The position numbers and the translations under genes are program-made. From the human T2T-CHM13v2.0 reference genome, Homo sapiens, in NCBI RefSeq assembly GCF_009914755.1, contig NC_060927.1: a DNA stretch of 64,000 bases. One strand, given 5' to 3'. How positions within the stretch are numbered: the stretch's first letter is position 1; each line of letters begins with the position of its first letter. This document shows positions 23,255 through 63,488 of the stretch, piece by piece. The notes under the pieces are model-generated. The model saw nothing but the letters and a program-made list of their open reading frames with translations. It was not told the origin of the DNA and ran no database searches.

Positions 23255-24392
23255 TTCAAGAGAAAGAAAACAAGCCACATACTGGGAGAATATATTTGCA
23301 AAAGATTTATATGATAAAGGACTGTTATCCAACATATACAAAGAACTCTTAAAGCTCAACAATAATAAAACAACCAGCTGGGCATGGTGGCTCACGCTTG
23401 TGATCCCAGCACTGTGGGAAGTGTGAAGATTGCTTCAGCCCAGGAGTTGGAGACCAGCCTGGGTAACATAGTGAGACCTTGGCTCTACAAAAAAATCTAA
23501 AAATTGGCTGGGTGTGGTGGCTCACATTTGTAATCCCAATAGTTTGGGAGGCTGAGGTGGGAGGATTGCTTGAGCTCAGGAGTTTGAGACCAGCCTGGAC
23601 AACATGGTGAAACCCCATCTCTACAAGAAAAACAAAAATTAGCCAAGCACAGTGGCGCATGCCTGTAGTTCCAGCTACTTGGGAGGCTGAGGTGGGAGGA
23701 TTGCTTGAGTCTGGAGGTTGTGGGTGTGCAGTGAGCCGTGATTGTGCCACTGCACTCCAGTCTGGACGACAGCAAGACCTTGTTTCTTAAAAAAAAAAAA
23801 AAAAGCTCCACATCACATATCATCTGGGAAATGCAAATCATTAGTGTGGCTAAAACCCAGAACACTTATAACACTAAATGCTGACAAGGATGTGGAGCAA
23901 TAGGAACTCTCATTTATTGCTGGTGGGAAAATGGTTCAGGTGCATTGGAAGATAGCTTGGCAGATTCTTACAAAACTAAATAAAACTCTGACTGTATGAT
24001 CCAGCAACTGCACTCCTTTGTATTTACCCAAAAGAGCTGTACACGTTAAAACCTGTACACAGATGTTTGCAGCAGCTTTATTCATAATCTCCAAAACTTA
24101 TAAGCAACCAAGATGTCCTCCGGTGGATTAATGGATAAACTATGGTATATACCGAAAACGGAATAACACTCAGTGTTAAAAAGAAATGAGCTATCCAGCC
24201 ATGAAAAGATACGGAGGAAGCTGAAACGCATATTACTATGTGAAAGAAGTCAATCTGAAAAGGCGATATACTGTATGATTCCAACTAGAGGACATTCTGG
24301 AAAAGGCAAAATTATGGAACTAACAAAAAGCCCAGTGGTTGCCAGGGGTTGGGAGGAGGAAGGAATGAATCAGTGGAGAGGATTTTTAGGGC
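23255..24392 (+). mobile_element. L1MC (L1MC1/2-like) ORF2 end and 3' UTR, left part
   Basis: remnant peptide [31 protein letters not shown] resembles the L1 ORF2p C-terminus; ends GGATTTTTAGGGC. Confidence 0.88.
23375..23803 (+). mobile_element. Alu monomer plus AluJ inside L1MC
   Basis: two Alu heads (~23375 and 23505), poly-A to 23803. Confidence 0.9.
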
Positions 24393-27300
24393 AGCGAAGC
24401 TCGTCTGTGCGATATCACAGTGGCAGATACAGGGAAGCTGCTCTGTATGATATCACAGTGGTAGATATAGTGAAGCTCCTCTGTGCGATATCACAGTGGT
24501 GGATACAGGGAAGCTCCTCTGTGCGATATCACAGTGGTAGATATAGTGAAGCTCCTCTGTGTGATATCACAGTGGTAGATACAGGGAAGCTGCTCTGTAT
24601 GATATCACAGTGGTAGATATAGTGAAGCTCCCCTGTATGATATCACAGTGGTAGATACACTGAAGCTCCTCTGTATGATATCACAGTGGTAGATATAGTG
24701 AAGCTCCTCTGTGCGATATCACAGCGGTAGATATAGTGAAGATCCTCTGTGTGATATCACAGTGGTAGATATAGTGAAGCTCCTCTGTATGATATCACAG
24801 TGGTAGATATAGTGAAGCTCCTCTGTGTGATATCACAGTGGTGGATATAGTGAAGCTCCTCTGTGTGATATCACAGTGGTGGATATAGTGAAGCTCCTCT
24901 GTGTGATATCACAGTGGTGGATATAGTGAAGCTCCTATATATGATACCACAGTGGTAGATACAGTGAAGCTCCTCTGTATGATATCACAGTGGTAGATAT
25001 AGTGAAGCTCCTCTGTGCGATATCACAGCGGTAGATATAGTGAAGTGTGATATCACAGTGGTGGATATAGTGAAGTTCCTCTGTGCGATATCACAGTGGT
25101 GGATATAGTGAAGCTGCTATATATGATACCACAGTGGTAGATACAGTGAAGCTCCTCTGTATTATATCACAGTGGTAGATATAGTGAAGCTCCTCTGTGT
25201 GATATCACAGTGGTGGATATAGTGAAGCTCCTCTGTGTGATATCACAGTGGTGGATATAGTGAAGCTCCTCTGTGCGATATCACAGTGGTGGATATAGTG
25301 AAGCTCCTATATATGATACCACAGTGGTAGATACAGTGAAGCTCCTCTGTATGATATCACAGTGGTAGATACAGTGAAGCTCCTGTGTGTGATATCACAG
25401 TGGTACATACAGTGAAGCTCCTATATATGATACCACAGTGGTAGATACAGTGAAGCTCCTCTGTATGATATCACAGTGGTAGATATAGTGAAGCTCCTAT
25501 ATATGATACCACAGTGGTAGCTACAGGGAAGCTCCTCTGTATGATATCACAGTGGTAAATATAGTGAAGCTCCTCTGTGCGATATCACAGCGGTAGATAT
25601 AGTGAAGCTCCTCTGTGTGATATCACAGTGGTGGATATAGTGAAGCTCCTCTGTGCGATATCACAGTGCTGGATATAGTGAAGCTCCTATATATGATATC
25701 ACAGTGGTAGATACAGTGAAGCTCCTCTGTATGATATCACAGTGGTAGATACAGTGAAGCTCCTGTGTGTGATATCACAGTGGTACATATAGTGAAGCTC
25801 CTATATATGATACCACAGTGGTAGATACAGTGAAGCTCCTCTGTATGATATCACAGTGGTAGATATAGTGAAGCTCCTTTGTGTGATATCACAGTGGTAG
25901 ATACAGTGAAGCTCCTGTGTGTGATATCACAGTGGTACATACAGTGAAGCTCCTATATATGATACCACAGTGGTAGATACAGTGAAGCTCCTCTGTATGA
26001 TATCACAGTGGTAGATATAGTGAAGCTCCTATATATGATACCACAGTGGTAGATACAGTGAAGCTCCTCTCTATGATATCACAGCGGTAGATATAGTGAA
26101 GCTCCTCTGTGCGATATCACAGCGGTAGATATAGTGAAGCTCCTTTGTGTGATATCACAGTGGTGGATATAGTGAAGCTCCTGTGTGTGATATCACAGTG
26201 GTACATATAGTGAAGCTCCTCTGTATGATATCACAGTGGTACATACACTAAAGCTGCTCTGTATGATATCACAGTGGTAGCTATAGCACAGCTCCTCTGT
26301 GTGATATCACAGTGGTAGATACAATGAAGCTCCTCTGTGTGATATCACAGTGGTAGATATAGTGAAGGTCCCCTGTATGATATCACAGTGGTGGATATAG
26401 TGAAGCTCCTCTGTATGATATCACAGTGGTCGATATAGTAAAGCTCCTCTGTGTGATATCACAGTGGTAGATACAGTGAAGCTCCTCTGTGTGATATCAC
26501 AGTGGTACATATAGTGAAGCTCCTCTGTGTGATATCACAGTGGTAGATACACTGAAGCTGCTCTGTATGATATCACAGTGGTAGCTATAGCACAGCTCCT
26601 CTGTGTGATATCACAGTGGTAGATACAATGAAGCTCCTCTGTGTGATATCACAGTGGTAGATACAGTGAAGCTCCTCTGTGTGATATCACAGTGGTGGAT
26701 ATAGTGAAGCTCCACTGTATGATATCACAGTGGTCGATATAGTGAAGCTGCTCTGTGTGATATCACAGTGGGAGATATAGTGAAGCTCCTCTGTATGATA
26801 TCACAGTGGTGGATATAGTGAAGCTCCTCTGTGCGATATCACAGTGGTGGATACAGGGAAGCTGCTCTGTATGATATCACAGTGGTAGATATAGTGAAGC
26901 TCCCCTGTATGATATCACAGTGGTAGATACAGTGAAGCTCCTCTGTATGATATCACAGTGGTAGATATAGTGAAGCTCCTCTGTGCGATATCACAGCGGT
27001 AGATATAGTGAAGATCCTCTGTGTGATATCACAGTGGTAGATATAGTGAAGCTCCTCTGTGTGATATCACAGTGGTGGATATAGTGAAGCTCCTCTGTGT
27101 GATATCACAGTGGTGGATATAGTGAAGCTCCTCTGTGTGATATCACAGTGGTGGATATAGTGAAGCTCCTATATATGATACCACAGTGGTAGATACAGTG
27201 AAGCTCCTCTGTATGATATCACAGTGGTAGATATAGTGAAGCTCCTCTGTGCGATATCACAGCGGTAGATATAGTGAAGCTCCTCTGTGTGATATCACAG

Positions 27301-30300
27301 TGGTGGATATAGTGAAGCTCCTCTGTGCGATATCGCAGTGGTGGATATAGTGAAGCTGCTATATATGATACCACAGTGGTAGATACAGTGAAGCTCCTCT
27401 GTATGATATCACAGTGGTAGATATAGTGAAGCTCCTCTGTGTGATATCACAGAGGTGGATATAGTGAAGCTCCTCTGTGTGATATCACAGTGGTGGATAT
27501 AGTGAAGCTCCTATATATGATACCACAGTGGTAGCTACAGTGAAGCTCCTCTGTATGATATCACAGTGGTAGATATAGTGAAGCTCCTCTGTGCGATATC
27601 ACAGCGGTAGATATAGTGAAGCTCCTCTGTGTGATATCACAGTGGTGGATATAGTCAACCTCCTCTGTGCGATATCACAGTGGTGGATATAGTGAAGCTC
27701 CTATATATGATACCACAGTGGTAGATACAGTGAAGCTCCTCTGTATGATATCACAGTGGTAGATACAGTGAAGCTCCTGTGTGTGATATCACAGTGGTAC
27801 ATATAGTGAAGCTCCTATATATGATACCACAGTGGTAGATACAGTGAAGCTCCTCTGTATGATATCACAGTGGTAGATATAGTGAAGCTCCTCTGTGTGA
27901 TATCACAGTGGTAGATACAGTGAAGCTCCTGTGTGTGATATCACAGTGGTACATATAGTGAAGCTCCTATATATGATACCACAGTGGTAGATACAGTGAA
28001 GCTCCTCTGTATGATATCACAGTGGTAGATATACTGAAGCTCCTATATATGATACCACAGTGGTAGATACAGTGAAGCTCCTCTCTATGATATCACAGCG
28101 GTAGATATAGTGAAGCTCCTCTGTGCGATATCACAGTGGTAGATATAGTGAAGCTCCCCTGTGTGATATCACAGTGGTGGATATAGTGAAGCTCCTCTGT
28201 GCGATATCACAGTGGTGGATATAGTGAAGCTCCTATATATGATACCACAGTGGTAGATACAGTGAAGCTCCTCTGTATGATATCACAGTGGTAGATATAG
28301 TGAAGCTCCTATATATGATACCACAGTGGTAGATACAGTGAAGCTCCTCTGTATGATATCACAGTGGTAGATATAGTGAAGCTCCTCTGTGCGATATCAC
28401 AGCGGTAGATATAGTGAAGCTCCTCTGTGTGATATCACAGTGGTGGATATAGTGAAGCTCCTCTGTGCGATATCACAGTGGTGGATATAGTGAAGCTCCT
28501 ATATATGATACCACAGTGGTAGATACAGTGAAGCTCCTCTGTATGATATCACAGTGGTAGATATAGTGAAGCTCCTATATATGATACCACAGTGGTAGAT
28601 ACAGTGAAACTCCTCTGTATGATAGCACAGTGGTAGATATAGTGAAGCTCCTCTGTGTGATATCACAGTGGTAGATACAGTGAAGCTCCTGTGTGTGATA
28701 TCACAGTGGTACATATAGTGAAGCTCCTATATATGATATCACAGTGGTAGATACAGTGAAGCTCCTCTGTATGATATCACAGTGGTAGATATAGTGAAGC
28801 TCCTCTGTGTGATATCACAGTGGTAGATACAGTGAAGCTCCTGTGTGTGATATCACAGTGGTACATATAGTGAAGCTCCTCTGTATGATATCTCAGTGGT
28901 ACATACACTAAAGCTGCTCTGTATGATATCACAGTGGTAGCTATAGCACAGCTCCTCTGTGTGATATCACAGTGGTATATACAATGAAGCTCCTCTGTGT
29001 GATATCACAGTGGTAGATATAGTGAAGGTCCCCTGTATGATATCACAGTGGTGGATATAGTGAAGCTCCTCTGTATGATATCACAGTGGTCGATATAGTA
29101 AAGCTCCTCTGTGTGATATCACACTGGTAGATACAGTGAAGCTCCTCTGTGTGATATCACAGTGGTACATATAGTGAAGCTCCTCTGTGTGATATCACAG
29201 TGGTAGATACACTGAAGCTGCTCTGTATGATATCACAGTGGTAGCTATAGCACAGCTCCTCTGTGTGATATCACAGTGGTAGATACAATGAAGCTCCTCT
29301 GTGTGATATCACAGTGGTAGATACAGTGAAGCTCCTCTGTGTGATATCACAGTGGTGGATATAGTGAAGCTCCACTGTATGATATCACAGTGGTCGATAT
29401 AGTGAAGCTGCTCTGTGTGATATCACAGTGGTAGATATAGTGAAGCTCCTCTGTATGATATCACAGTGGTGGATATAGTGAAGCTCCTCTGTGCGATATC
29501 ACAGTGGTGGATACAGGGAAGCTGCTCTGTATGATATCACAGTGGTAGATATAGTGAAGCTCCCCTGTATGATATCACAGTGGTAGATACAGTGAAGCTC
29601 CTCTGTATGATATCACAGTGGTAGATATAGTGAAGCTCCTCTGTGCGATATCACAGCGGTAGATATAGTGAAGATCCTCTGTGTGATATCACAGTGGTAG
29701 ATATAGTGAAGCTCCTCTGTGTGATATCACAGTGGTGGATATAGTGAAGCTCCTCTGTGTGATATCACAGTGGTGGATATAGTGAAGCTCCTCTGTGTGA
29801 TATCACAGTGGTGGATATAGTGAAGCTCCTATATATGATACCACAGTGGTAGATACAGTGAAGCTCCTCTGTATGATATCACAGTGGTAGATATAGTGAA
29901 GCTCCTCTGTGCGATATCACAGCGGTAGATATAGTGAAGCTCCTCTGTGTGATATCACAGTGGTGGATATAGTGAAGCTCCTCTGTGCGATATCGCAGTG
30001 GTGGATATAGTGAAGCTGCTATATATGATACCACAGTGGTAGATACAGTGAAGCTCCTCTGTATGATATCACAGTGGTAGATATAGTGAAGCTCCTCTGT
30101 GTGATATCACAGAGGTGGATGTAGTGAAGCTCCTCTGTGTGATATCACAGTGGTGGATATAGTGAAGCTCCTATATATGATACCACAGTGGTAGCTACAG
30201 TGAAGCTCCTCTGTATGATATCACAGTGGTAGATATAGTGAAGCTCCTCTGTGCGATATCACAGCGGTAGATATAGTGAAGCTCCTCTGTGTGATATCAC

Positions 30301-33300
30301 AGTGGTGGATATAGTCAACCTCCTCTGTGCGATATCACAGTGGTGGATATAGTGAAGCTCCTATATATGATACCACAGTGGTAGATACAGTGAAGCTCCT
30401 CTGTATGATATCACAGTGGTAGATACAGTGAAGCTCCTGTGTGTGATATCACAGTGGTACATATAGTGAAGCTCCTATATATGATACCACAGTGGTAGAT
30501 ACAGTGAAGCTCCTCTGTATGATATCACAGTGGTAGATATAGTGAAGCTCCTCTGTGTGATATCACAGTGGTAGATACAGTGAAGCTCCTGTGTGTGATA
30601 TCACAGTGGTACATATAGTGAAGCTCCTATATATGATACCACAGTGGTAGATACAGTGAAGCTCCTCTGTATGATATCACAGTGGTAGATATACTGAAGC
30701 TCCTATATATGATACCACAGTGGTAGATACAGTGAAGCTCCTCTCTATGATATCACAGCGGTAGATATAGTGAAGCTCCTCTGTGCGATATCACAGCGGT
30801 AGATATAGTGAAGCTCCCCTGTGTGATATCACAGTGGTGGATATAGTGAAGCTCCTCTGTGCGATATCACAGTGGTGGATATAGTGAAGCTCCTATATAT
30901 GATACCACAGTGGTAGATACAGTGAAGCTCCTCTGTATGATATCACAGTGGTAGATATAGTGAAGCTCCTATATATGATACCACAGTGGTAGATACAGTG
31001 AAGCTCCTCTGTATGATATCACAGTGGTAGATATAGTGAAGCTCCTCTGTGCGATATCACAGCGGTAGATATAGTGAAGCTCCTCTGTGTGATATCACAG
31101 TGGTGGATATAGTGAAGCTCCTCTGTGCGATATCACAGTGGTGGATATAGTGAAGCTCCTATATATGATACCACAGTGGTAGATACAGTGAAGCTCCTCT
31201 GTATGATATCACAGTGGTAGATATAGTGAAGCTCCTATATATGATACCACAGTGGTAGATACAGTGAAACTCCTCTGTATGATAGCACAGTGGTAGATAT
31301 AGTGAAGCTCCTCTGTGTGATATCACAGTGGTAGATACAGTGAAGCTCCTGTGTGTGATATCACAGTGGTACATATAGTGAAGCTCCTATATATGATATC
31401 ACAGTGGTAGATACAGTGAAGCTCCTCTGTATGATATCACAGTGGTAGATATAGTGAAGCTCCTCTGTGTGATATCACAGTGGTAGATACAGTGAAGCTC
31501 CTGTGTGTGATATCACAGTGGTACATATAGTGAAGCTCCTCTGTATGATATCTCAGTGGTACATACACTAAAGCTGCTCTGTATGATATCACAGTGGTAG
31601 CTATAGCACAGCTCCTCTGTGTGATATCACAGTGGTATATACAATGAAGCTCCTCTGTGTGATATCACAGTGGTAGATATAGTGAAGGTCCCCTGTATGA
31701 TATCACAGTGGTGGATATAGTGAAGCTCCTCTGTATGATATCACAGTGGTCGATATAGTAAAGCTCCTCTGTGTGATATCACACTGGTAGATACAGTGAA
31801 GCTCCTCTGTGTGATATCACAGTGGTACATATAGTGAAGCTCCTCTGTGTGATATCACAGTGGTAGATACACTGAAGCTGCTCTGTATGATATCACAGTG
31901 GTAGCTATAGCACAGCTCCTCTGTGTGATATCACAGTGGTAGATACAATGAAGCTCCTCTGTGTGATATCACAGTGGTAGATACAGTGAAGCTCCTCTGT
32001 GTGATATCACAGTGGTGGATATAGTGAAGCTCCACTGTATGATATCACAGTGGTCGATATAGTGAAGCTGCTCTGTGTGATATCACAGTGGTAGATATAG
32101 TGAAGCTCCTCTGTATGATATCACAGTGGTGGATATAGTGAAGCTCCTGTGTGCGATATCACAGTGGTGGATACAGGGAAGCTGCTCTGTATGATATCAC
32201 AGTGGTAGATATAGTGAAGCTCCCCTGTATGATATCACAGTGGTAGATACAGTGAAGCTCCTCTGTATGGTATCACAGTGGTAGATATAGTGAAGCTCCT
32301 CTGTGCGATATCACAGCGGTAGATATAGTGAAGATCCTGTGTGATATCACAGTGGTAGATATAGTGAAGCTCCTCTGTATGATATCACAGTGGTAGATAT
32401 AGTGAAGCTCCTCTGTGTGATATCACAGTGGTGGATATAGTGAAGCTCCTCTGTGTGATATCACAGTGGTGGATATAGTGAAGCTCCTATATATGATACC
32501 ACAGTGGTAGATACAGTGAAGCTCCTCTGTATGATATCACAGTGGTAGATATAGTGAAGCTCCTCTGTGCGATATCATAGCGGTAGATATAGTGAAGCTC
32601 CTCTGTGTGATATCACAGTGGTGGATATAGTGAAGCTCCTCTGTGCGATACCACAGTGGTGGATATAGTGAAGCTGCTATATATGATACCACAGTGGTAG
32701 ATACAGTGAAGCTCCTCTGTATGATATCACAGTGGTAGATATAGTGAAGCTCCTCTGTGTGATATCACAGTGGTGGATATAGTGAAGCTCCTCTGTGTGA
32801 TATCACAGTGGTGGATATAGTGAAGCTCCTATATATGGTACCACAGTGGTAGCTACAGTGAAGCTCCTCTGTATGATATCACAGTGGTAGATATAGTGAA
32901 GCTCCTCTGTGCGATATCACAGCGGTAGATATAGTGAAGCTCCTCTGTGTGATATCACAGTGGTGGATATAGTGAAGCTCCTCTGTGCGATATCACAGTG
33001 GTGGATATAGTGAAGCTCCTATATATGATACCACAGTGGTAGATACAGTGAAGCTCCTCTGTATGATATCACAGTGGTAGATACAGTGAAGCTCCTGTGT
33101 GTGATATCACAGTGGTACATATAGTGAAGCTCCTATATATGATACCACAGTGGTAGATACAGTGAAGCTCCTCTGTATGATATCACAGTGGTAGATATAG
33201 TGAAGCTCCTCTGTGTGATATCACAGTGGTAGATACAGTGAAGCTCCTGTGTGTGATATCACAGTGGTACATATAGTGAAGCTCCTATATATGATACCAC

Positions 33301-36300
33301 AGTGGTAGATACAGTGAAGCTCCTCTGTATGATATCACAGTGGTAGATATACTGAAGCTCCTATATATGATACCACAGTGGTAGATACAGTGAAGCTCCT
33401 CTCTATGATATCACAGCGGTAGATATAGTGAAGCTCCTCTGTGCGATATCACAGCGGTAGATATAGTGAAGCTCCTCTGTGTGATATCACAGTGGTGGAT
33501 ATAGTGAAGCTCCTCTGTGCGATATCACAGTGGTGGATATAGTGAAGCTCCTATATATGATACCACAGTGGTAGATACAGTGAAGCTCCTCTGTATGATA
33601 TCACAGTGGTAGATATAGTGAAGCTCCTATATATGATACCACAGTGGTAGATACAGTGAAACTCCTCTGTATGATAGCACAGTGGTAGATATAGTGAAGC
33701 TCCTCTGTGTGATATCACAGTGGTAGATACAGTGAAGCTCCTGTGTGTGATATCACAGTGGTACATATAGTGAAGCTCCTATATATGATATCACAGTGGT
33801 AGATACAGTGAAGCTCCTCTGTATGATATCACAGTGGTAGATATAGTGAAGCTCCTCTGTGTGATATCACAGTGGTAGATACAGTGAAGCTCCTGTGTGT
33901 GATATCACAGTGGTACATATAGTGAAGCTCCTCTGTATGATATCTCAGTGGTACATACACTAAAGCTGCTCTGTATGATATCACAGTGGTAGCTATAGCA
34001 CAGCTCCTCTGTGTGATATCACAGTGGTATATACAATGAAGCTCCTCTGTGTGATATCACAGTGGTAGATATAGTGAAGGTCCCCTGTATGATATCACAG
34101 TGGTGGATATAGTGAAGCTCCTCTGTATGATATCACAGTGGTCGATATAGTAAAGCTCCTCTGTGTGATATCATACTGGTAGATACAGTGAAGCTCCTCT
34201 GTGTTATATCACAGTGGTACATATAGTGAAGCTCCTCTGTGTGATATCACAGTGGTAGATACACTGAAGCTGCTCTGTATGATATCACAGTGGTAGCTAT
34301 AGCACAGCTCCTCTGTGTGATATCACAGTGGTAGATACAATGAAGCTCCTCTGTGTGATATCACAGTGGTAGATACAGTGAAGCTCCTCTGTGTGATATC
34401 ACAGTGGTGGATATAGTGAAGCTCCACTGTATGATATCACAGTGGTCGATATAGTGAAGCTGCTCTGTGTGATATCACAGTGGTAGATATAGTGAAGCTC
34501 CTCTGTATGATATCACAGTGGTGGATATAGTGAAGCTCCTGTGTGCGATATCACAGTGGTGGATACAGGGAAGCTGCTCTGTATGATATCACAGTGGTAG
34601 ATATAGTGAATCTCCCCTGTATGATATCACAGTGGTAGATACAGTGAAGCTCCTCTGTATGGTATCACAGTGGTAGATATAGTGAAGCTCCTCTGTGCGA
34701 TATCACAGCGGTAGATATAGTGAAGATCCTGTGTGATATCACAGTGGTAGATATAGTGAAGCTCCTCTGTATCATATCACAGTGGTAGATATAGTGAAGC
34801 TCCTCTGTGTGATATCACAGTGGTGGATATAGTGAAGCTCCTCTGTGTGATATCACAGTGGTGGATATAGTGAAGCTCCTATATATGATACCACAGTGGT
34901 AGATACAGTGAAGCTCCTCTGTATGATATCACAGTGGTAGATATAGTGAAGCTCCTCTGTGCGATATCATAGCGGTAGATATAGTGAAGCTCCTCTGTGT
35001 GATATCACAGTGGTGGATATAGTGAAGCTCCTCTGTGCGATACCACAGTGGTGGATATAGTGAAGCTGCTATATATGATACCACAGTGGTAGATACAGTG
35101 AAGCTCCTCTGTATGATATCACAGTGGTAGATATAGTGAAGCTCCTTTGTGTGATATCACAGTGGTGGATATAGTGAAGCTCCTCTGTGTGATATCACAG
35201 TGGTGGATATAGTGAAGCTCCTATATATGGTACCACAGTGGTAGCTACAGTGAAGCTCCTCTGTATGATATCACAGTGGTAGATATAGTGAAGCTCCTCT
35301 GTGCGATATCACAGCGGTAGATATAGTGAAGCTCCTCTGTGTGATATCACAGTGGTGGATATAGTGAAGCTCCTCTGTGCGATATCACAGTGGTGGATAT
35401 AGTGAAGCTCCTATATATGATACCACAGTGGTAGATACAGTGAAGCTCCTCTGTATGATATCACAGTGGTAGATACAGTGAAGCTCCTGTGTGTGATATC
35501 ACAGTGGTACATATAGTGAAGCTCCTATATATGATACCACAGTGGTAGATACAGTGAAGCTCCTCTGTATGATATCACAGTGGTAGATATAGTGAAGCTC
35601 CTCTGTGTGATATCACAGTGGTAGATACAGTGAAGCTCCTGTGTGTGATATCACAGTGGTACATATAGTGAAGCTCCTATATATGATACCACAGTGGTAG
35701 ATACAGTGAAGCTCCTCTGTATGATATCACAGTGGTAGATATAGTGAAGCTCCTATATATGATACCACAGTGGTAGATACAGTGAAGCTCCTCTCTATGA
35801 TATCACAGCGGTAGATATAGTGAAGCTCCTCTGTGCGATATCACAGCGGTAGATATAGTGAAGCTCCTCTGTGTGATATCACAGTGGTGGATATAGTGAA
35901 GCTCCTCTGTGCGATATCACAGTGGTGGATATAGTGAAGCTCCTATATATGATACCACAGTGGTAGATACAGTGAAGCTCCTCTGTATGATATCACAGTG
36001 GTAGATATAGTGAAGCTCCTATATATGATACCACAGTGGTAGATACAGTGAAGCTCCTCTGTATGATATCACAGTGGTAGATATAGTGAAGCTCCTCTCT
36101 CTGATATCACAGTGGTAGATACAGTGAAGCTCCTGTGTGTGATATCACAGTGGTACATATAGTGAAGCTCCTATATATGATACCACAGTGGTAGATACAG
36201 TGAAGCACCTCTGTATGATATCACAGTGGTAGATATAGTGAAGCTCCTCTGTGTGATATCACAGTGGTAGATACAGTGAAGCTCCTGTGTGTGATATCAC

Positions 36301-51300: not shown

Positions 51301-54300
51301 TATAGTGAAGCTCCTCTGTGCGATATCACAGTGGCAGATACAGTGAAGCTCCTCTGTGCGATATCAAAGTGGTAGATATAGTGAAGCTCCTCTGTGCGAT
51401 ATCACAGTGGCAGATACAGTGAAGCTCCTCTGTGTGATATCACAGTGGCAGATACAGTGAAGCTCCTCTGTGCGATACCACAGTGGTAGATATAGTGAAG
51501 CTCCTCTGTGCGATATCACAGTGGCAGATACAGTGAAGCTCCTCTGTGCGATATCACAGTGGTAGATATAGTGAAGTTCCTCTGTGCGATATCACAGTGG
51601 CAGATACAGTGAAGCTCCTCTGTGCGATATCACAGTGGTAGATATAGTGAAGCTCCTCTGTGCGATATCACAGTGGCAGACACAGTGAAGCTCCTCTGTG
51701 CGATATCACAGTGGTAGATATAGTGAAGCTCCTCTCTGCGATATCACAGTGGCAGATACAGTGAAGCTCCTCTGTGTGATATCACAGTGGCAGATACAGT
51801 GAAGCTCCTCTGTATGATATCACAGTGGTAGATACAGTGAAGCTCCTCTGTGTGATATCTCAGTGGCAGATACAGTGAAGCTCCTCTGGATGATATCACA
51901 GTGGTAGATACAGTGAAGCTCCTCTGTGTGATATCACAGTGGTAGATATAGTGAAGCTCCTCTGTGCGATATCACAGTGGCAGATACAGTGAAGCTCCTT
52001 TGTGCGATATCACAGTGGTAGATACAGTGAAGCTCCTCTGTATGATATCAGAGTGGTAGATACAGTGAAGCTCCTCTGTATGATATCACAGTGGTAGATA
52101 CAGTGAAGCTCCTCTCTATGATATCACACTGGTAGATACAGTGAAGCTCCTCTGTATGATATCACAGCGGCAGATACGGTGAAGCTCCTCTGTGCGATAT
52201 CACAGTGGCAGATACAGTGAAGCTCCTCTGTGTGATATCACAGTGGTAGATACAGTGAAGCTCCTCTGTATGAAATCACAGTGGCAGATACAGTGAATCT
52301 CCTCTGTGCGATATCACAGCGGTAGATATAGTGAAGCTCCTCTGTATGATATCACAGTGGTGGATATAGTGAAGCTCCTCTTTATGATATCACAATGTTA
52401 GACACAGGGAAGCTCCTCTGTATGATATCACAGTGGTAGATATAGTGATGCTCCTCTGTATGATATCACAGTAGTACCTACAGTGAAGCTCCTCTGTGTG
52501 ATAACACAGTGGTAGATGTACTGAAGCTCCTCTGCGTGATATCACAGGGGTAGATACACGGAAGCTCCTCTGTATGATATCAAAGTGTTAGATACAGTGA
52601 AGCTGCTCTGTATGATATCACACTGGTAGATACAGTGAAGCTCGTCTCTGTGATATCACAGTGGTAGATATAGTGAAGCTGCTCTGTATGATATAACACT
52701 GGTAGATACAGTGAAGATCCCCTGTATGATATCACAGTGGTAGATACACTGAAGCTGCTCTGTATGATATCGCAGTGGTAGATATAGCACAGCTCCTCTG
52801 TGTGATATCACAGTGGTAGATACAATGAAGCTCCTCTGTATGATATCACAGTGGTAGATATAGTGAAGCTACCCTGTATGATATCACAGTGGTAGATATA
52901 CTGAAGCTCCTCTGTATGATATCACAGTGGTAGATATAGTGAAGCTCCTCTGTGCGATATCACAGTGGCAGATACAGTGAAGCTCCTCTGTGCGATATCA
53001 GAGTAGCAGATACAGTGAAGCTCCTCTGTATGATATCACAGTGGTAGATATAATGAAGCTCCTCTGTGTGATATCACAGTGGTAGATACAGTGAAGCTGC
53101 TCAGTAGGATATCAATAGTGCAGCTGCTCTGTATGACATCACAGTGGTAGATATAGTGAAGCTCCCCTGTATGATATCACAGTGGTAGATATAATGAAGC
53201 TGCCCTGTATAATATCACAGAGGTAGATATAGTGAAGCTGCTCTGTATGATATCACAGTGGTAGATATAGTGAAGCTGCTCTGTGTGATATCACAGTGGC
53301 AGATACAGTGAAGCTCCTCTGTATGATATCACAGTGGTAGATATAGTGAAGCTCCTCTGTATGATATCACAGTAGTACCTACAGTGAAGCTCCTCTGTGT
53401 GATAACACAGTGGTAGATGTACTGAAGCTCCTCTGTGTGATATCACAGGGGTAGATACACGGAAGCACCTCTCTATGATATCAAAGTGTTAGATACAGTG
53501 AAGCTGCTCTGTATGATATCACAGTGGTAGATATAGTGAAGCTCCTCTGTGTGATATCACAGTGGTAGATACAGTGAAGCTGCTCTGTATGATATCACAG
53601 TGGTAGATATAGTGAAGCTCCTCTGTGTGATATCACACTGGTAGATACAGTGAAGCTGCTCTGTATGATATCACAGTGGTAGATATTGTGAAGCTCCTCT
53701 GTGTGATATCACAGTGGTAGATACAGTGAAGCTCGTCTCTGTGATATCACAGTGGTAGATATAGTGAAGCTGCTCTGTATGATATAACACTGGTAGATAC
53801 AGTGAAGATCCCCTGTATGATATCACAGTGGTAGATACACTGAAGCTGCTCTGTATGATATCGCAGTGGTAGATATACCACAGCTCCTCTGTTTGATATC
53901 ACAGTGGTAGATACAATGAAGCTCCTCTGTATGATATCACAGTGGTAGATATAGTGAAGCTACCCTGTATGATATCACAGTGGTAGATATAGTGAAGCTC
54001 CTCTGTATGATATCACAGTGGTGGATATAGTGAAGCTCGTCTGTATGATATCACAGTGGTGCATATAGTGAAGCTCCTCTGTATGATATCACAGTGGTGG
54101 ATATAGTGAAGCTCCTCTGTATGATATCACAGTGGTAGATACAGTGAAGCTCCTCTATATGATATCACAGTGGTAGATATAGTGAAGCTCCTCTGTGTGA
54201 TATCACACTGGTAGATATAATGAAGCTGCTCTGTGTGATATCACAGTGGTAGATATAGTGAAGCTGCTCTGTATGATATAACAGTGGGAGATATAGTGAA

Positions 54301-57300
54301 GCTGCTCTGTATGATATCAACAGTGCAGCTGCTCCGTATGATATCACAGTGGTAGTTATAGAGAAGCGCCCCTGTATGATATCACAGTGGTAAATATAGT
54401 GAAGTTCCTCTGTGTGATATCACAGTGGTAGATACAGTGAAGCTCCTCTGTGTGATATCACAGTGGTAGATATAGTGAAGCTCCTCTGTGTGATATCACA
54501 GTGGTAGATATAGTGAAGCTCCTATATATGATACCACAGTGGTAGATATAGTGAAGCTCCTCTGTATGATATCACAGTGGCAGATACAGTAAATCTCCTC
54601 TGTGTGATATCACAGTGGTAGATACAGTGATGCTCCTCTGTGTGATATCACAGTGGTACATATAGTGAAGCTCCTCTGTATGATATCACAGTGGTAGATA
54701 CACTGAAGCTGCTCTGTATGATATCACAGTGGTAGCTATAGCACAGCTCCTCTGTGTGATATCACAGTGGTAGATACAATGAAGCTCCTCTGTGTGATAT
54801 CACAGTGGTAGATATAGTGAAGGTCCCCTGTATGATATCACAGTGGTGGATATAGTGAAGCTCCACTGTATGATATCACAGTGGTCGATATAGTGAAGCT
54901 GCTCTGTGTGATATCACAGTGGTAGATATAGTGAAGCTCCTCTGTATGATATCACAGTGGTGGATATAGTGAAGCTCCTCTGTATGATATCACAGTGGTG
55001 GATATAGTGAAGCGCCTCTGTATGATATCACAGTGGTAGATACAGTGAAGCAGCCCTGTATGATATCACAGTGGTAGATGCAGTGAAGCTGCTCTGTGCG
55101 ATATCACAGTGGTAGATATAGTGGAGCTGCTCTGTATGATATCACAGTGGTACATGTAGTAAAGCTCCGCTGTATATCACAGTGGTAGATAAAGTGAAGC
55201 TCCTCTGTATGATATCACAGTGGTAGATATAGTGAAGCTCCTCTGTGTGATGTCACAGTAGTAGATATAGTGAAGCTCCCATGTATGATATCACAGTGGT
55301 ACGTATAGTGAAGTTCTTCTGTGTGATATCACAGTGGTAGATTTAGTGAAGCTCCCCTGTATGATATCACAGTGGTAGATATAGTGAAGTTCCTCTGTGT
55401 GATATCACAGTGGTAGATATAGTGAAGTTCCCCATATGATATCACAGTGATAGATATCGTGAAGCTCCCCTGTATGATACCACAGTGGTAGATATAGTGA
55501 AGATCCTCTGTGTGACATCACAGTGGTAGGTATAGTGAAGATCCCCTGTAGGATATCACAGTGGTAGATATAGTGAAGCTGCTCTGTGTGATATCACAGT
55601 GGTACATACAGTGAAGCTCCTCTGTGTGATATCACAGTGGTAGAAATAGTGAAGCTCCTCTGTATGATATCACAGTGGTAGATATAGTGAAGCTCCTCTG
55701 TGTGATATCACAGTGGTAGATACAGTGAAGCTGCTCTGTATGATATCACAGTGGTAGATATAGTGAAGTTCCTCTGTGTAATATCACACTGGTAGATACA
55801 GTGAAGCTGCTCTGTATGATATCACAGTGGTAGATATAGTGAAGCTCCTCTGTGTGATATCACACTGGTAGATACAGTGAAGCTGCTCTGTATGTTATCA
55901 CAGTGGTAGGTATTGTGAAGTTCCTCTGTGTGAAATCACAGTGGTAGATACAGTGAAGCTCGTCTGTGTGATATCACAGTGGTAGATATAGTGAAGCTGC
56001 TCTGTATGATATAACAGTGGTACATACAGTGAAGATCCCCTGTATGATATCACAGTGGTAGATACACTGAAGCTGCTCTGTATGATATCGCAGTGGTAGA
56101 TATAGCACAGCTCCTCTGTGTGATATCACAGTGGTAGATACAATGAAGCTCCTCTGTATGATATCACAGTGGTAGATATAGTGAAGCTGCCCTGTATGAT
56201 ATCACAGTGGTAGATATCATGAAGCTCCCCTGTATGACATCACAGTGGTGGATATAGTGAAGCTCCTCTGTATGATATCACAGTGGTGGATATAGTGAAG
56301 CTCCTCTATGATATCACAGTGGTGGATATAGTGAAGCTCCTCTGTATGATATCACAGTGGTAGATACAGTGAAGCAGCTCTGTATGATATCACAGTGGTA
56401 GATACAGTGAAGCTCCTCTATATGATATCACAGTGGTAGATATAGTGAAGCTCCTCTGTGTGATATCACAGTGGTAGATATAGTGAAGCTACTCTGTATG
56501 ATATCAATAGTGGAGCTGCTCTGTATATCATCACAGTGGTAGTTATAGAGAAGCTCCCCTGTATGATATCACAGTGGTGGATATAGTGAAGCTCCTCTGT
56601 ATGATATCACAGTGGTAGATACAGTGAAGCAGCTCTGTATGATATCACAGTGGTAGATACAGTGAAGCTCCTCTATATGATATCACAGTGGTAGATATAG
56701 TGAAGCTCCTCTGTGTGATCTCACAGTGGTAGATATAGTGAAGCTGCTCTGTATGATATCAATAGTGGAGCTGCTCTGTATATCATCACAGTGGTAGTTA
56801 TAGAGAAGCTCCCCTGTATGATATCACAGTGGTAGATATAGTGAAGTTCCTCTGTGTAATATCACACTGGTAGATACAGTGAAGCTGCTCTGTATGATAT
56901 CACAGTGGTAGATATAGTGAAGCTCCTCTGTGTGATATCACACTGGTAGATACAGTGAAGCTGCTCTGTATGATATCACAGTGGTAGATATTGTGAAGTT
57001 CCTCTGTGTGAAATCAGAGTGGTAGATACAGTGAAGCTCATCTGTGTGATATCACAGTGGTAGATATAGTGAAGCTGCTCTGTATGATATAACAGTGGTA
57101 GATACAGTGAAGATCCCCTGTATGATATCACAGTGGTAGATACACTGAAGCTGCTCTGTATGATATCGCAGTGGTAGATATAGCACAGCTCCTCTGTGTG
57201 ATATCACAGTGGTAGATACAATGAAGCTCCTCTGTATGATATCACAGTGGTAGATATAGTGAAGCTGCCCTGTATGATATCACAGTGGTAGATATCGTGA

Positions 57301-60300
57301 AGCTCCCCTGTATGATATCACATCGGTGGATATAGTGAAGCTCCTCTGTATGATATCACAGTGGTGGATATAGTGAAGCTCCTCTATGATATCACAGTGG
57401 TGGATATAGTGAAGCTCCTCTGTATGATATCACAGTGGTAGATACAGTGAAGCTCCTCTATATGATATCACAGTGGTAGATATAGTGAAGCTCCTCTGTG
57501 TGATCTCACAGTGGTAGATATAGTGAAGCTGCTCTGTATGATATCAATAGTGGAGCTGCTCTGTATATCATCACAGTGGTAGTTATAGAGAAGCTCCCCT
57601 GTATGATATCACAGTGGTAGATATAGTGAAGCTGCTCTGTATGATATCACAGTGGTAGATACAGTGAAGCTCCTCTGTGTGATATCACAGTGGTAGATAC
57701 AGTGAAGCTCCTCTGTGTGATATCACAGTGGTACATATAGTGAAGCTCCTATATATGATACCACAGTGGTAGATATAGTGAAGCTCCTCTGTATGATATC
57801 ACAGTGGTAGATATAGTGAAGCTCCTCTGTGTGATATCACAGTGGTAGATACAGTGAAGCTCCTCTGTGTGATATCACAGTGGTACATATAGTGAAGCTC
57901 CTCTGTATGATATCACAGTGGTAGATACACTGAAGCTGCTCTGTATGATATCACAGTGGTAGCTATAGCACAGCTCCTCTGTGTGATATCACAGTGGTGG
58001 ATACAATGAAGCTCCTCTGTGTGATATCACAGTGGTAGATATAGTGAAGGTCCCCTGTATGATATCACAGTGGTGGATATAGTGAAGCTCCACTGTATGA
58101 TATCACAGTGGTCGATATAGTGAAGCTGCTCTGTGTGATATCACAGTGGTAGATATAGTGAAGCTCCTCTGTATGATATCACAGTGGTGGATATAGTGAA
58201 GCTCCTCTTTATGATATCACAGTGGTGGATATAGTGAAGCGCCTCTGTATGATATCACAGTGGTAGATACAGTGAAGCAGCCCTGTATGATATCACAGTG
58301 GTAGATACAGTGAAGCTGCTCTGTGTGATATCACAGTGGTAGGTATAGTGGAGCTGCTCTGTATGATATCACAGTGGTACATGTAGTAAAGCTCCGCTGT
58401 ATATCACAGTGGTAGATAAAGTGAAGCTCCTCTGTATGATATCACAGTCGTAGATATAGTGAAGCTCCTCTGTGTGATGTCACAGTAGTAGATATAGTGA
58501 AGCTCCCATGTATGATATTACAGTGGTACGTATAGTGAAGTTCTTCTGTGTGATATCACAGTGGTAGATTTAGTGAAGCTCCCCTGTATGATATCACAGT
58601 GGTAGATATAGTGAAGTTCCTCTGTGTGATATCACAGTGGTAGATATAGTGAAGTTCCCCATATGATATCACAGTGATAGATATCGTGAAGCTCCCCTGT
58701 ATGATACCACAGTGGTAGATATAGTGAAGATCCTCTGTGTGACATCACAGTGGTAGATATAGTGAAGATCCCCTGTAGGATATCACAGTGGTAGATATAG
58801 TGAAGCTGCTCTGTGTGATATCACAGTGGTACATACAGTGAAGCTCCTCTGTGTGATATCACAGTGGTAGAAATAGTGAAGCTCCTCTGTATGATATCAC
58901 AGTGGTAGATATAGTGAAGCTCCTCTGTGTGATATCACAGTGGTAGATACAGTGAAGCTGCTCTGTATGATATCACAGTGGTAGATATAGTGAAGTTCCT
59001 CTGTGTAATATCACACTGGTAGATACAGTGAAGCTGCTCTGTATGATATCAGAGTGGTAGATATAGTGAAGCTCCTCTGTGTGATATCACACTGGTAGAT
59101 ACAGTGAAGCTGCTCTGTATGATATCACAGTGGTAGATATTGTGAAGTTCCTCTGTGTGAAATCACAGTGATAGATACAGTGAAGCTCGTCTGTGTGATA
59201 TCACAGTGGTAGATATAGTGAAGCTGCTCTGTATGATATAACAGTGGTAGATACAGTGAAGATCCCCTGTATGATATCACAGTGGTAGATACACTGAAGC
59301 TGCTCTGTATGATATCACAGTGGTAGATATAGCACAGCTCCTCTGTGTGATATCACAGTGGTAGATACAATGAAGCTCCTCTGTATGATATCACAGTGGT
59401 AGATATAGTGAAGCTGCCCTGTATGATATCACAGTGGTAGATATCGTGAAGCTCCCCTGTATGATATCACAGTGGTGGATATAGTGAAGCTCCTCTGTAT
59501 GATATCACAGTGGTGGATATAGTGAAGCTCCTCTGTATGATATCACAGTGGTAGATACAGTGAAGCAGCTCTGTATGATATCACAGTGGTAGATACAGTG
59601 AAGCTCCTCTGTATGATATCACAGTGGTAGATATAGTGAAGCTCCTCTGTGTGATCTCACAGTGGTAGATATAGTGAAGCTGCTCTGTATGATATCAATA
59701 GTGGAGCTGCTCTGTATATCATCACAGTTGTAGTTATAGAGAAGCTCCCCTGTATGATATCACAGTGGTAGATATAGTGAAGCTGCTCTGTATGATATCA
59801 CAGTGGTAGATACAGTGAAGCTCCTCTGTGTGATATCACAGTGGTAAGATACAGTGAAGCTCCTCTGTGTGATATCACAGTGGTAGATTCAGTGAAGCTG
59901 CTCTGTATGATATCACAGTGGTAGATATTGTGAAGCTCCTCTGTGTGATATCACAGTGGTAGATACAGTGAAGCTTGTCAGTGTGATATCACAGTGGTAG
60001 ATATAGTGAAGCTGCTCTGTATGATATAACAGTGGTAGATATAGTGAAGCTCCCCTGTATGATATCACAGTGGTAGATACACTGAAGCTGCTCTGTATGA
60101 TATCACAGTGGTAGCTATAGCACAGCTCCTCTGTGTGATATCACAGTGGTAGATACAATGAAGCTCCTCAGTTTGATATCACAGTGGTAGATATAGTGAA
60201 GGTCCCCTGTATGATAACACAGTGTGGATATAGTGAAGCTCCTCTGTATGATATCACAGTGGTGGATATAGTGAATCTCCTCTGTATGATATCACAGTGG

Positions 60301-62044
60301 TAGATACAGTGAAGCAGCCCTGTATGATATCACAGTTGTAGATACAGTGAAGCTGCTCTGTGTGATATCACAGTGGTAGATATAGTGGAGCTGCTCTGTA
60401 TGATATCACAGTGGTACATATAGTAAAGCTCCGCTCTATATCACAGTGGTAGAGAAAGTGAAGCTCCTCTGCATGATATCACAGTCGTAGATATAGTGAA
60501 GCTCCTCTGTGTGATGTCACAGTAGTAGATATAGTGAAGCTCCCATGTATGATATCACAGTGGTACGTATAGTGAAGTTCCTCTGTGTGATATCACAGTG
60601 GTAGATTTAGTGAAGCTCCCCTGTATGATATCACAGTGGTAGATATAGTGAAGTTCCTCTGTGTGATATCACAGTGGTAGATATAGTGAAGCTCCCCTAT
60701 ATGATATCACAGTGATAGATATCGTGAAGCTCCCCTGTATGATACCACAGTGGTAGATATAGTGAAGATCCTCTGTGTGACATCACAGTGGTAGATATAG
60801 TGAAGATCCCCTGTAGGATATCACAGTGGTAGATATAATGAAGGTGCTCTGTATGATATCACAGTGGTAGATATAGTGAAGCTCCCCTATATGATATCAC
60901 AGTGATAGATATCGTGAAGCTCCCCTGTATGATACCACAGTGGTAGATATAGTGAAGATCCTCTGTGTGACATCACAGTGGTAGATATAGTGAAGATCCC
61001 CTGTAGGATATCACAGTGGTAGATATAGTGAAGCTGCTCTGTGTGATATCACAGTGGTAGATATAGTGAAGCTACTCTGTGTGATATCACAGTGGTACAT
61101 ACAGTGAAGCTCCTCTGTGTGATATCACAGTGGTAGATATAGTGAAGCTCCTCTGTATGATATCACAGTGGTAGATACAGTGAAGCTCCCCTGTATGATA
61201 TCACAGTGGTAGATATAGTGAAGCTCCTCTGTATGATATCACAGTGGTAGATATAGTGAAGCTGCTGTGTATATCACAGTGGTAGATACAGTGAAGCTCC
61301 CCTGTATATCACAGTGGCAGTTATATTGAAGCTCCTGTGTGTGATATCACAGTGGTAGATATACTGAAGCTCCTCTGTATGATATCACAGTGGTAGATAT
61401 AGTGAAGCTCCTCTGTATGATATCACAGTGGTAGACACAGAGAAGCTCCTCTGTGTGATATCACAGTGGTAGATATGGTGAAGCTCCTCTGTATGATATC
61501 ACAGTGGTAGACACAGCGAAGCTCCTCTGTGTGATATCACAGTGGTAGATATGGTGAAGCTCCTCTGTATGATATCACAGTGCTAGGTATAGTGAAGCTA
61601 CTCTGTGTGATATCACAGTGGTAGATATAGTGAAGCTCCCCTGTATGATATCACAGTAGTAGATATAGTGAAGCTCCTCTGTCTGATATCACAGTGGTAG
61701 ATACAATGAAGCTCCTCTGTGTGATATCACAGTGGTAGATATAGTGAAGCTCCTCTGTGTGATATCACAGTGGTAGATATAGTGAAGCTCCTCTGTGTGA
61801 TATCACAGTGGGAGGTATAGTGAAGCTCCCCCTGTATGATATCACAGTTGTATATATAGTGAAGCTCCTCTGTATGATATCACATTAGTAGATATAGTGA
61901 AGCTCCTCTGTGTGATATCACAGTGGTAGGTACAGTGAAGCTCCTCTGTATGATATCACAGTGGTAGATATAGTGAAGCTCCTCTGTATATCACAGTGGT
62001 AGATATAGCGCAGCTCCTCTGTATGACATCACAGTGGTAGATAC
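24393..62044 (+). repeat. Giant 38-bp tandem array (VNTR/satellite, ~37.65 kb, ~1000 units) derived from the L1MC 3' UTR, with higher-order repeats
   Basis: unit AGTGAAGCTCCTCTGT(A/G)TGATATCACAGTGGTAGATA(C/T), head-to-tail in one orientation, no spacers or inserted elements seen; rare-variant spacings are multiples of 38 after allowing for visible deletions. Confidence 0.99.
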
Positions 62045-62299
62045 ACATCATTATGCATTTGTCCAAACCCATAGAATGTAGTATACCCAGAGTGAACCCA
62101 AATGTAAACTATGGACTTTGGGTCAGTGTCATTGTAGGTTCATTGATTATAACAAATGTACCACTTTGTGGGGGATATTGGTTATGGGGGAGGTTATGTA
62201 TGTGTGAGGGCAGATGGTACATAAGAAATCTCTGTAGTTTTCTCTCAGTTTTGCTGTGAAGCTAAAACTGCTCTAAAAAATAAAGCTTATTTTAAAAAA
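62045..62299 (+). mobile_element. L1MC 3' UTR terminus, right part
   Basis: ACATCATTATGCATTTGTCCAAACCCATAGAATG...GTAAACTATGGACTTTGGG...CTAAAACTGCTCTAAAAAATAAAG plus A tail. Confidence 0.9.
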
Positions 62300-63412: not shown

Positions 63413-63488
63413 AAGGAAATTAGTTATTTCTGGTTTCTTTCTGGTTTCTAAGGAAATTAGCTGATTTTTGGTTTCTTTCTGGTTCTAA
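63413..63488. repeat. 37-bp tandem duplication
   Basis: AAGGAAATTAG...TTT(C/T)TGGTTTCTTTCTGGTT at 63413 and 63450. Confidence 0.85.

What the first reader, a model, noticed from the sequence alone, without database searches (positions are those of the whole stretch)
24393..62044. A satellite born in place: 38 bp of a dead L1MC 3' UTR amplified ~1000-fold
Seen: left flank ...GGATTTTTAGGGC|AGCGAAG and right flank ...GGTAGATAC|ACATCATTATGCATTTGTCCAAACCC. Collapsing the array to one unit restores a contiguous L1MC 3' UTR (recalled consensus GGGCAGTGAAACTATTCTGTATGATACTATAATGGTGGATACATGTCATTATACATTTG). A CA dinucleotide at both ends gives microhomology for the founding duplication. No Alu interrupts 37.6 kb although the flanks carry more than one per kb, so expansion looks recent. 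This is far larger than typical VNTRs and probably collapsed in older assemblies. It may already be catalogued in T2T repeat annotation; I cannot check.
Basis: partly seen in the sequence, partly recalled or inferred. Interest (0 to 1): 0.82.

Follow-up and report, generated by a model that had tools for sequence, protein, structure and literature searches.

The report
Known 3q29 L1-derived 38-bp repeat array
A 37.6-kb run of about 1000 copies of a 38-base piece of an old, dead LINE-1 element is real and grew where it sits, but it is the well-known chromosome 3q29 repeat that laboratories already use as a CRISPR imaging target.

Summary
TRF finds one array at 24396-62043, with period 38 and 996.9 copies. 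My segmentation gives 997 units and no foreign insertion.

The flanks are the two halves of one dead LINE-1 3' end. In 8 of 10 paralogous copies the flank homologies are collinear, 22-38 bp apart (35-38 in 7), about one unit. No scored paralog carries two units. All 694 near-consensus 38-mers in the genome lie in this array.

Three parts of the interpretation fail or stay open:
- **Not newly resolved.** hg19 holds the array at 34,855 bp. It is the "C3 / Chr3q29 / Chr3Rep" dCas9 imaging target.
- **Recency is only partly supported.** The array is layered. Four left-hand blocks of 2.4-2.7 kb are 98.6-99.7% alike. Five right-hand blocks of 3.3-4.0 kb are 94-97.7% alike. Single units are about 87% alike.
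- **The subfamily name L1MC could not be tested.**

It is a large, ordinary transposon-derived minisatellite that grew by unequal exchange. No function is indicated.

The parts
23840..24392 (+). Left half of the dead LINE-1 3' end: the ORF2 C-terminal remnant plus the start of the 3' UTR. It ends at the array junction.
   Evidence: BLAST to 10 of 10 paralogous copies at 70-81% identity. The translated piece 24000-24128 matches human LINE-1 ORF2p residues 1188-1215 of 1275, E 1.8e-5 to 4.2e-5. Divergence from the majority of 9 paralogs is 53 of 330 positions, 16.1%. Pfam found nothing.
23377..23720 (+). Alu inserted into the same LINE-1, upstream of the array.
   Evidence: Alu-like segment by self-BLAST. 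TRF shows the dimeric 136-bp period at 23421-23720. ORF2-like reading frames lie on both sides of it in the ORF list; calling them ORF2-like is my reading from recall.
24393..62044 (+). The 38-bp tandem array: 997 units and 37,652 bp.
   Evidence: TRF; segmentation. It holds 648 sites of the published C3 protospacer followed by NGG, 835 EcoRV sites and 206 CpG against 1625 expected. The longest stop-free stretch is 84 aa. There is no Rfam match.
26136..36239 (+). Left domain: four copies of a 63-70-unit higher-order block (2660, 2660, 2392 and 2392 bp).
   Evidence: Pairwise identity is 98.6-99.7% over 2392-2660 aligned bases. Diagonal runs: 101 units at lag 70 with 99.6% identity, and 86 units at lag 63 with 99.4%.
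38819..61219 (+). Right domain: six blocks of 87-108 units (3.3-4.1 kb), each starting at a 27-bp deletion-variant unit.
   Evidence: Five of the six blocks are 94.1-97.7% alike. The block at 50229-54297 is only about 90% alike to the others, which is the background level.
62045..62300 (+). Right half of the LINE-1 3' UTR, with AATAAA at 62279-62284 and the A-rich tail.
   Evidence: Read directly. The search with three units plus the right flank returned 39 matches out of 4056 candidates, at 76-81% identity. Most run to query positions 348-371 of 371, close to the A-tail. Divergence from the paralog majority is 49 of 279 positions, 17.6%.

Best explanation
This is a transposon-derived minisatellite (VNTR) grown to satellite size. 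I know of no function for it.

**Proposed history**
1. An old LINE-1 inserted here in the + orientation and decayed.
2. Much later, one roughly 38-bp stretch about 100 bp past the end of ORF2 was duplicated head to tail. The breakpoints share a CA dinucleotide.
3. Once two or more copies existed, out-of-register pairing let the array grow in steps. The exchange could be unequal sister-chromatid or homologue exchange, or gene conversion.
4. Single units first diverged from one another.
5. Blocks of about 90-105 units were then copied, forming the right domain.
6. Most recently, blocks of 63-70 units were copied, forming the left domain.

**What is shown and what is inferred**
- Shown: the anatomy, the in-place origin, the single-locus status and the block structure.
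- Inferred: the exchange mechanism and the timing.

The array is the same locus that the CRISPR imaging literature calls C3, Chr3q29 or Chr3Rep.
For: **Array and units:**

**Flanks are LINE-1**
- The left flank translates to a match with human ORF2p residues 1188-1215 of 1275.
- The left-flank query returned 39 matches out of 2862 candidate loci, at 77-82% identity.
- The right-flank query returned 39 matches out of 4056 candidates, at 76-81% identity.

**In-place origin**
- In 8 of 10 paralogs the two flank homologies are collinear, 22-38 bp apart (35-38 bp in 7), about one unit.
- None of the 39 matches starts before query position 83, so none carries a second unit.
- The genome holds 694 matches to the consensus 38-mer at up to 3 mismatches, all on the forward strand. 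The backwards-read control gave 0. The window's array alone also holds 694.

**Late founding event**
- 6 of 38 unit positions differ from the paralog majority in more than 90% of units, both edge units included.
- That 15.8% is close to the flanks' total divergence of 16.1% and 17.6%.

**Layered growth by blocks:**

**Identity with the known locus**
- The C3 protospacer and its TGG PAM occur 648 times, and only inside the array.
- The reverse complement of the published Chr3 FISH probe occurs 153 times.
- The papers place the repeat at 3q29, with the ACAP2 and PPP1R2 start sites 35 and 36 kb away. They give its hg19 span as 34,855 bp.
Against: - The exchange mechanism is inferred from block structure alone. 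Nothing here observes an exchange event.
- The 'late founding' argument rests on 38 positions. Variants swept through the array after amplification would look the same as founder changes.
- Mean unit divergence from the paralog majority is 24.7% (bootstrap over positions 14-37%). That is nominally above the flanks, but the interval includes them.
- Single units are only about 87% alike. At ordinary substitution rates this is hard to square with a young array, unless mutation or turnover is raised inside it.
- A 3-unit stretch folds no better than shuffles (z -1.44; 16 of 200 shuffles fold at least as well). No hairpin-driven slippage is indicated.
- No ape or monkey sequence could be examined.
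Confidence: 0.85

Rival explanations
1. The whole array is a very recent, human-lineage burst, which is the reader's 'recent' reading taken strictly. The diversity among units would then come from a raised mutation rate inside the array.
For: - There are 0 Alu-like segments in 37.6 kb, against about 34 expected at flank density.
- Left-domain blocks are 98.6-99.7% alike, and some 20-unit windows are 100% identical.
- Founder changes (6 of 38) already equal the flank divergence.
- Variant units that carry CpG still survive: 206 CpG in the array.
Against: - Right-domain blocks differ by 2.3-5.9%.
- Units are about 87% alike at every lag, and there are 311 distinct unit types.
- At genome-average rates (recalled, not computed here) these depths match ape to Old World monkey splits.
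- The lack of Alu can also be explained by a small target at the time of the Alu wave, or by loss of interrupted units through unequal exchange.
Confidence: 0.2
2. The tandem repeat was already present in the source LINE-1 and arrived with the insertion.
For: Some transposon families do carry internal tandem repeats that spread by transposition. Ahmed and Liang describe this for LTR12 (passages).
Against: - None of the 39 matches and none of the 10 loci aligned has more than one unit.
- All 694 genome matches to the unit lie at this locus.
- The unit carries 6 changes that the paralog majority lacks.
Confidence: 0.02
3. The length is an assembly artefact of the T2T assembly.
For: Long, near-identical blocks (99.7%) are the kind of sequence that can be mis-assembled.
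Against: - hg19, an independent assembly, holds 34,855 bp at the same place.
- The dCas9 papers describe 'about 500' or '529' target sites.
- They show discrete labelled foci in U2OS, HeLa, HepG2 and RPE cells.
Confidence: 0.03
4. The array is a functional element maintained by selection, such as a chromatin boundary, a zinc-finger-protein binding platform or a regulator of ACAP2 and PPP1R2.
For: Artificial HP1-alpha tethering to the array lowers ACAP2, PPP1R2 and TFRC expression moderately (passages). This shows that chromatin state at the array can reach neighbouring genes.
Against: - That effect is engineered, not natural.
- The array has no ORF above 84 aa and no Rfam family.
- The hub's RefSeq table shows no annotated gene or regulatory feature in the array.
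- Unit sequences drift freely, with 311 types.
Confidence: 0.07

Closest known systems
C3 / Chr3q29 / Chr3Rep repeat used for dCas9 live-cell imaging and tethering (Ma et al. J Cell Biol 2016, PMC5004447; CRISPR FISHer, PMC9652286; CRISPR-EChO preprint 10.1101/2021.06.06.447300; Bio-protocol, PMC12423276)
   Same: It is the same locus. It lies at 3q29 between ACAP2 and PPP1R2. The published 11-nt protospacer with its TGG PAM occurs 648 times here, and only inside the array. The reverse complement of the published FISH probe occurs 153 times.
   Different: - The passages I saw treat the repeat purely as a target. They do not discuss its LINE-1 origin or block structure.
- The hg19 span is 34,855 bp against 37,652 bp here. 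The 2,797-bp difference is about one left-domain block; this is my inference.
Transposon-derived minisatellites and satellites (Ahmed and Liang 2012, PMC3389668)
   Same: A tandem repeat whose unit is an internal piece of a transposable element, started and expanded locally after insertion. That paper reports 7,276 such repeats, 23% of human minisatellites and satellites (abstract and passages).
   Different: - Size. Those 7,276 repeats total 1.05 Mb, about 144 bp each on average, whereas this one alone is about 35-38 kb.
- I did not see their tables, so I cannot say whether this locus is in their set.
Higher-order-repeat satellites such as alpha satellite, and the transposon-derived SST1 arrays (Hoyt et al. 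preprint 10.1101/2021.07.12.451456)
   Same: The array is built in layers: diverged monomers are grouped into multi-monomer blocks that are much more alike than the monomers are. That is the signature of unequal exchange.
   Different: - It is a single euchromatic locus. The CRISPR-EChO authors call the region active euchromatin.
- It is not centromeric.
- The blocks vary in length and are few (4 and 5-6 copies).

Membership tests
Transposon-derived minisatellite / VNTR | Head-to-tail copies of a unit of roughly 10-100 bp | tested here: met
   Period 38 with 996.9 copies. 949 of 997 units are exactly 38 bp.
Transposon-derived minisatellite / VNTR | The unit is homologous to an internal segment of a transposable element, and both flanks continue that element collinearly | tested here: met
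   In 8 of 10 paralogs the flank homologies are collinear and 22-38 bp apart. The unit aligns to the intervening segment.
Transposon-derived minisatellite / VNTR | The repeat arose at this copy and was not inherited from the source element | tested here: met
   None of the 39 scored paralogs has a second unit. All 694 genome matches to the unit lie in this array.
LINE-1 (flanking element) | Encodes ORF2p-related sequence upstream, and ends in a polyadenylation signal and an A-tail | tested here: met
   ORF2p residues 1188-1215 are matched at E 1.8e-5. AATAAA lies at 62279-62284, followed by an A-run. Pfam gave no hit on the short decayed pieces.
L1MC subfamily specifically | Best match to the L1MC 3'-end consensus among LINE-1 subfamily models (Dfam / RepeatMasker) | not testable with these tools
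   No Dfam or RepeatMasker library is available. The only indirect figures are 16-18% divergence from the majority of nearby paralogs and an Alu inserted into the element. Both fit an old mammalian LINE-1 but do not name the subfamily.
C3 / Chr3q29 CRISPR imaging repeat | Hundreds of copies of the published protospacer plus NGG at 3q29 between ACAP2 and PPP1R2 | tested here: met
648 sites, all inside the array.
Classical satellite DNA | Very long arrays, usually at several loci and in heterochromatin | tested here: not met
   It is a single 37.6-kb locus, in a region the CRISPR-EChO authors describe as active euchromatin. By unit size and context it is a very large minisatellite.

The most novel reading that the evidence does not exclude
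The array may be a satellite caught in the act of being born. The almost identical left-domain blocks (98.6-99.7%) would be human-lineage additions that still vary among people in steps of about 2.4-2.7 kb. Array length would then tune chromatin state and expression of ACAP2 and PPP1R2. That would make this already CRISPR-addressable locus a natural model for how a transposon fragment turns into a higher-order-repeat satellite.
Probability: 0.15. Interest if true: 0.45.

Novelty: already known. Interest (0 to 1): 0.22.

Why it matters
The locus matters mainly as a tool. It is one of the standard bright targets for dCas9 imaging and tethering.

- 997 units, of which 648 are usable C3 sites.
- Two domains with block periods of 63-70 units and about 87-108 units.
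- A clear demonstration that the array grew in place from one 38-bp piece of a dead LINE-1 3' end.

This is useful background for anyone who uses the locus quantitatively, because site number and allele length are likely to vary in block steps. It is also a clean textbook example of a transposon-derived minisatellite. It does not open a new question.

Tried and rejected
- **Pfam on five translated flank pieces.** There was no LINE-1 domain hit, only a chance UBA_BRSK match at E 0.062. The PDB sequence search gave the ORF2p match instead. A second piece, 24167-24391, gave only chance hits at E 0.13-0.22.
- **Hairpin or cruciform-driven slippage.** A DNA fold of three units was not better than shuffles (z -1.44). 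Rejected as unsupported.
- **A single global higher-order period.** Identity by unit lag is flat at 0.864-0.883 over the whole array. Structure appears only locally.
- **Edge decay.** The first and last units match the consensus at 32 of 38 positions against a median of 35. The 50-unit bins show no gradient, at 0.905-0.936.
- **Coding potential.** The longest stop-free stretch is 84 aa.
- **RNA families.** The only Rfam hit in the window is a U6 copy at 5316-5400.
- **Literature on origin or population and ape variation of this array.**
  - '3q29' with 'L1MC': 0 papers.
  - 'ACAP2' with 'VNTR': 1 paper, irrelevant.
  - 'PPP1R2' with 'VNTR': 7 papers, judged irrelevant from the listing.
  - '3q29', 'VNTR', 'T2T-CHM13' and 'tandem repeat': 5 papers held all four terms. 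In the two whose '3q29' passages I read, those concern inversions.
  - The Hoyt et al. preprint has no 'chr3' or '3q29' in its main text. Its supplements are closed and could list the array.
- **Papers not held.** Ma et al. 2015 (PMC4364232) and the journal version of Hoyt et al..
- **Earlier findings of this scan** were not open to the session.
Full report
**1. The observation**

Tandem Repeats Finder reports one array at 24396-62043 with period 38, 996.9 copies, 87% matches and 1% indels.

I cut 24393-62044 into units against the TRF consensus:
- There are 997 units. Of these, 949 are 38 bp, 15 are a 27-bp deletion variant and the remainder are 30-39 bp.
- There are 311 distinct unit sequences. 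The commonest occurs 69 times.
- Because the units tile the whole interval, nothing longer than a unit is inserted.

Other properties of the array:
- CpG is depleted, at 206 observed against 1625 expected.
- Deviations from the consensus are 1669 transitions and 1027 transversions.
- The longest stop-free stretch on either strand is 84 aa.
- No Rfam family matches in the array.

**2. What the flanks are**

A search of the window's own genome with 24200-24470 returned 39 matches out of 2862 candidate loci, at 77-82% identity. Many of them run past the junction by about one unit. A search with three units plus the right flank (61930-62300) returned 39 matches out of 4056 candidates, at 76-81% identity. 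So the flanks belong to an abundant interspersed repeat.

The translated piece 24000-24128 matches human LINE-1 ORF2p residues 1188-1215 of 1275, at E 1.8e-5 to 4.2e-5 in four PDB sequence groups. Pfam found nothing on five short decayed pieces. A second piece gave only chance PDB hits.

The right flank ends in AATAAA (62279-62284) and an A-run. Most of the matches run to within about 20 bases of that point.

By the ORF2p register, the ORF2 stop would fall near 24290-24300. The array therefore starts roughly 90-100 bp into the 3' UTR. This placement is inferred. The subfamily name L1MC could not be tested, because no Dfam or RepeatMasker library is available.

**3. Born in place**

BLAST of the left and right flanks against ten paralogous loci (L001-L010) gave the following:
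- The left flank matched in 10 of 10.
- In 8 of 10 the right-flank homology follows collinearly, 22-38 bp after the left-flank homology. The gap is 35-38 bp in 7 of them and 22 bp in L005, which has a deletion.
- In L002 the right flank was missed by BLAST but aligned in MAFFT.
- In L006 the two homologies are 486 bp apart.

The MAFFT alignment shows the first unit continuing the left flank and the last unit continuing into the right flank. Both sit in register with the single-copy segment of the paralogs.

None of the 39 matches begins before query position 83. That is inside the last unit, so no scored paralog has a second unit.

Genome-wide, the consensus 38-mer at up to 3 mismatches has 694 forward and 0 reverse matches, and the backwards-read control has 0. 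The window's array alone holds 694, spanning 24434-61974. The array is therefore a single locus, and the repeat was not inherited from a source element.

By my arithmetic, 2 bp or more of microhomology is expected at about 16% of random junctions, so this carries little weight.

**4. When**

Against the column-majority of 9 paralogs, the left flank differs at 53 of 330 positions (16.1%) and the right flank at 49 of 279 (17.6%).

Within the unit:
- 6 of 38 positions differ from that majority in more than 90% of units, and 2 more in 50-90%.
- Four of the six lie in the block that creates the EcoRV site. They are present in both edge units.

So the founder had already taken on about as much change (15.8%) as the flanks carry today. 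This argues that amplification began late in the element's life. There are two limits to this argument. It rests on only 38 positions. Later sweeps within the array would look the same as founder changes.

Mean unit divergence from the majority is 24.7%, with a bootstrap interval over positions of 14-37%.

There are 24 Alu-like segments in 26,348 bp of flank and none in the array. About 34 would be expected at flank density. One Alu sits inside the same LINE-1 at 23377-23720. Most of the present length therefore post-dates the main Alu wave, or interrupted units were lost by exchange.

**5. Internal architecture**

Identity by unit lag is flat over the whole array, at 0.864-0.883. Local analysis shows two domains.

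*Left domain (26136-36239)*
- It has four blocks of 2660, 2660, 2392 and 2392 bp, which is 70, 70, 63 and 63 units.
- They are 98.6-99.7% alike.
- Some 20-unit windows are identical.

*Right domain (38819-61219)*
- It has six blocks of 3265-4069 bp, each opening with a 27-bp variant unit.
- Five of the six are 94.1-97.7% alike.
- The sixth (50229-54297) is only about 90% alike to the others. That is the background level seen for unrelated blocks: left against right is 90.4%.

Monomers inside a block are only about 83-90% like their neighbours.

This is the layered pattern expected from repeated unequal exchange: monomer divergence first, then amplification of blocks of about 100 units, then recent amplification of blocks of 63-70 units.

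Using recalled genome-average divergences (human-chimpanzee about 1.2%, human-macaque about 6%), the left-domain copies are of human-chimpanzee depth or younger. The right-domain copies are of ape to Old World monkey depth. This assumes ordinary mutation rates and no gene conversion, neither of which is assured. This dating is inference.

A DNA fold of three units is unremarkable (z -1.44). I therefore see no support for a structure-driven mechanism.

**6. Already known**

The unit contains the 11-nt 'C3' protospacer followed by a TGG PAM. This is used for dCas9 imaging (PMC12423276, Table 1 passage; PMC13750381, passage). It occurs 676 times in the window, 648 of them followed by NGG, and never outside the array.

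What the papers say about the locus:
- Ma et al. 2016 give it as hg19 chr3:195199022-195233876 at subtelomeric 3q29 (PMC5004447, passage). That span is 34,855 bp.
- CRISPR FISHer cites the same span and 'about 500 repeats'. It gives a FISH probe whose reverse complement occurs 153 times here (PMC9652286, passages).
- The CRISPR-EChO preprint describes a '529-copy, 29 kilobase' target. It places the ACAP2 and PPP1R2 start sites 35 and 36 kb from the repeat, in a region it calls active euchromatin. Artificial HP1-alpha tethering there moderately lowers expression of neighbouring genes (10.1101/2021.06.06.447300, passages).

The array was therefore not collapsed in older assemblies. CHM13 is 2,797 bp longer than hg19, which is about one left-domain block (my inference).

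The general class is also in print. Ahmed and Liang 2012 report 7,276 transposon-derived tandem repeats, 23% of human minisatellites and satellites, totalling 1.05 Mb (PMC3389668, abstract and passages). At 35-38 kb this locus is an extreme member of that class.

I found no paper that discusses the LINE-1 origin or block structure of this particular array (searches; passages). However, supplements of preprints are closed, two key papers were not held, and genome-browser repeat tracks were not available to me.

**7. Verdict**

- The in-place LINE-1 origin is confirmed.
- The claims of novelty and of collapse in older assemblies are not supported.
- 'Recent' holds only for the left domain.
- The array is best described as a very large, single-locus, transposon-derived minisatellite with emerging higher-order structure.
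- It has no indicated function and is already widely used as a CRISPR target.

Noticed in passing
window 5316-5400 (+): A U6 snRNA copy (Rfam RF00026, 50.8 bits against a gathering score of 44, full model length). It corresponds to the RefSeq 'cmsearch' pseudogene LOC124906341 in the hub table.
   Followed up: partly
window 20740-21050: A purine-rich GGAGG/GGGAGG simple repeat of about 310 bp, with period 5, 10 or 15 and 79-83% matches. It lies just upstream of an Alu cluster.
   Followed up: no
window 24393-62044, every unit: - Most units carry an EcoRV site (835 in the array) and the heptamer CACAGTG (829).
- In the 419 units with G at unit position 14, the EcoRV site sits in a 12-bp perfect palindrome; this is my reading of the sequence.
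- The changes that create the palindrome are among the six founder-specific differences from the LINE-1 majority.
- Folding gave no sign that this matters.
   Followed up: partly
window 22763-23015 (-): Reading-frame pieces resembling the LINE-1 ORF2 C-terminus lie on the minus strand (one search list). This suggests a second LINE-1 fragment in the opposite orientation next to the array-bearing one. The resemblance is judged from recall. Pfam gave no hit on one such piece.
   Followed up: partly
window 63412-63488: An unrelated two-copy 38-bp tandem repeat (2.1 copies, 90% matches) in the right flank. Its unit sequence is different, and the shared period looks like coincidence.
   Followed up: no
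window 62045-62048, right junction: Directly after the last unit the window differs from the paralog majority at two adjacent bases. The pattern is what two-way decay of an ancestral CpG would give. This is my inference.
   Followed up: no
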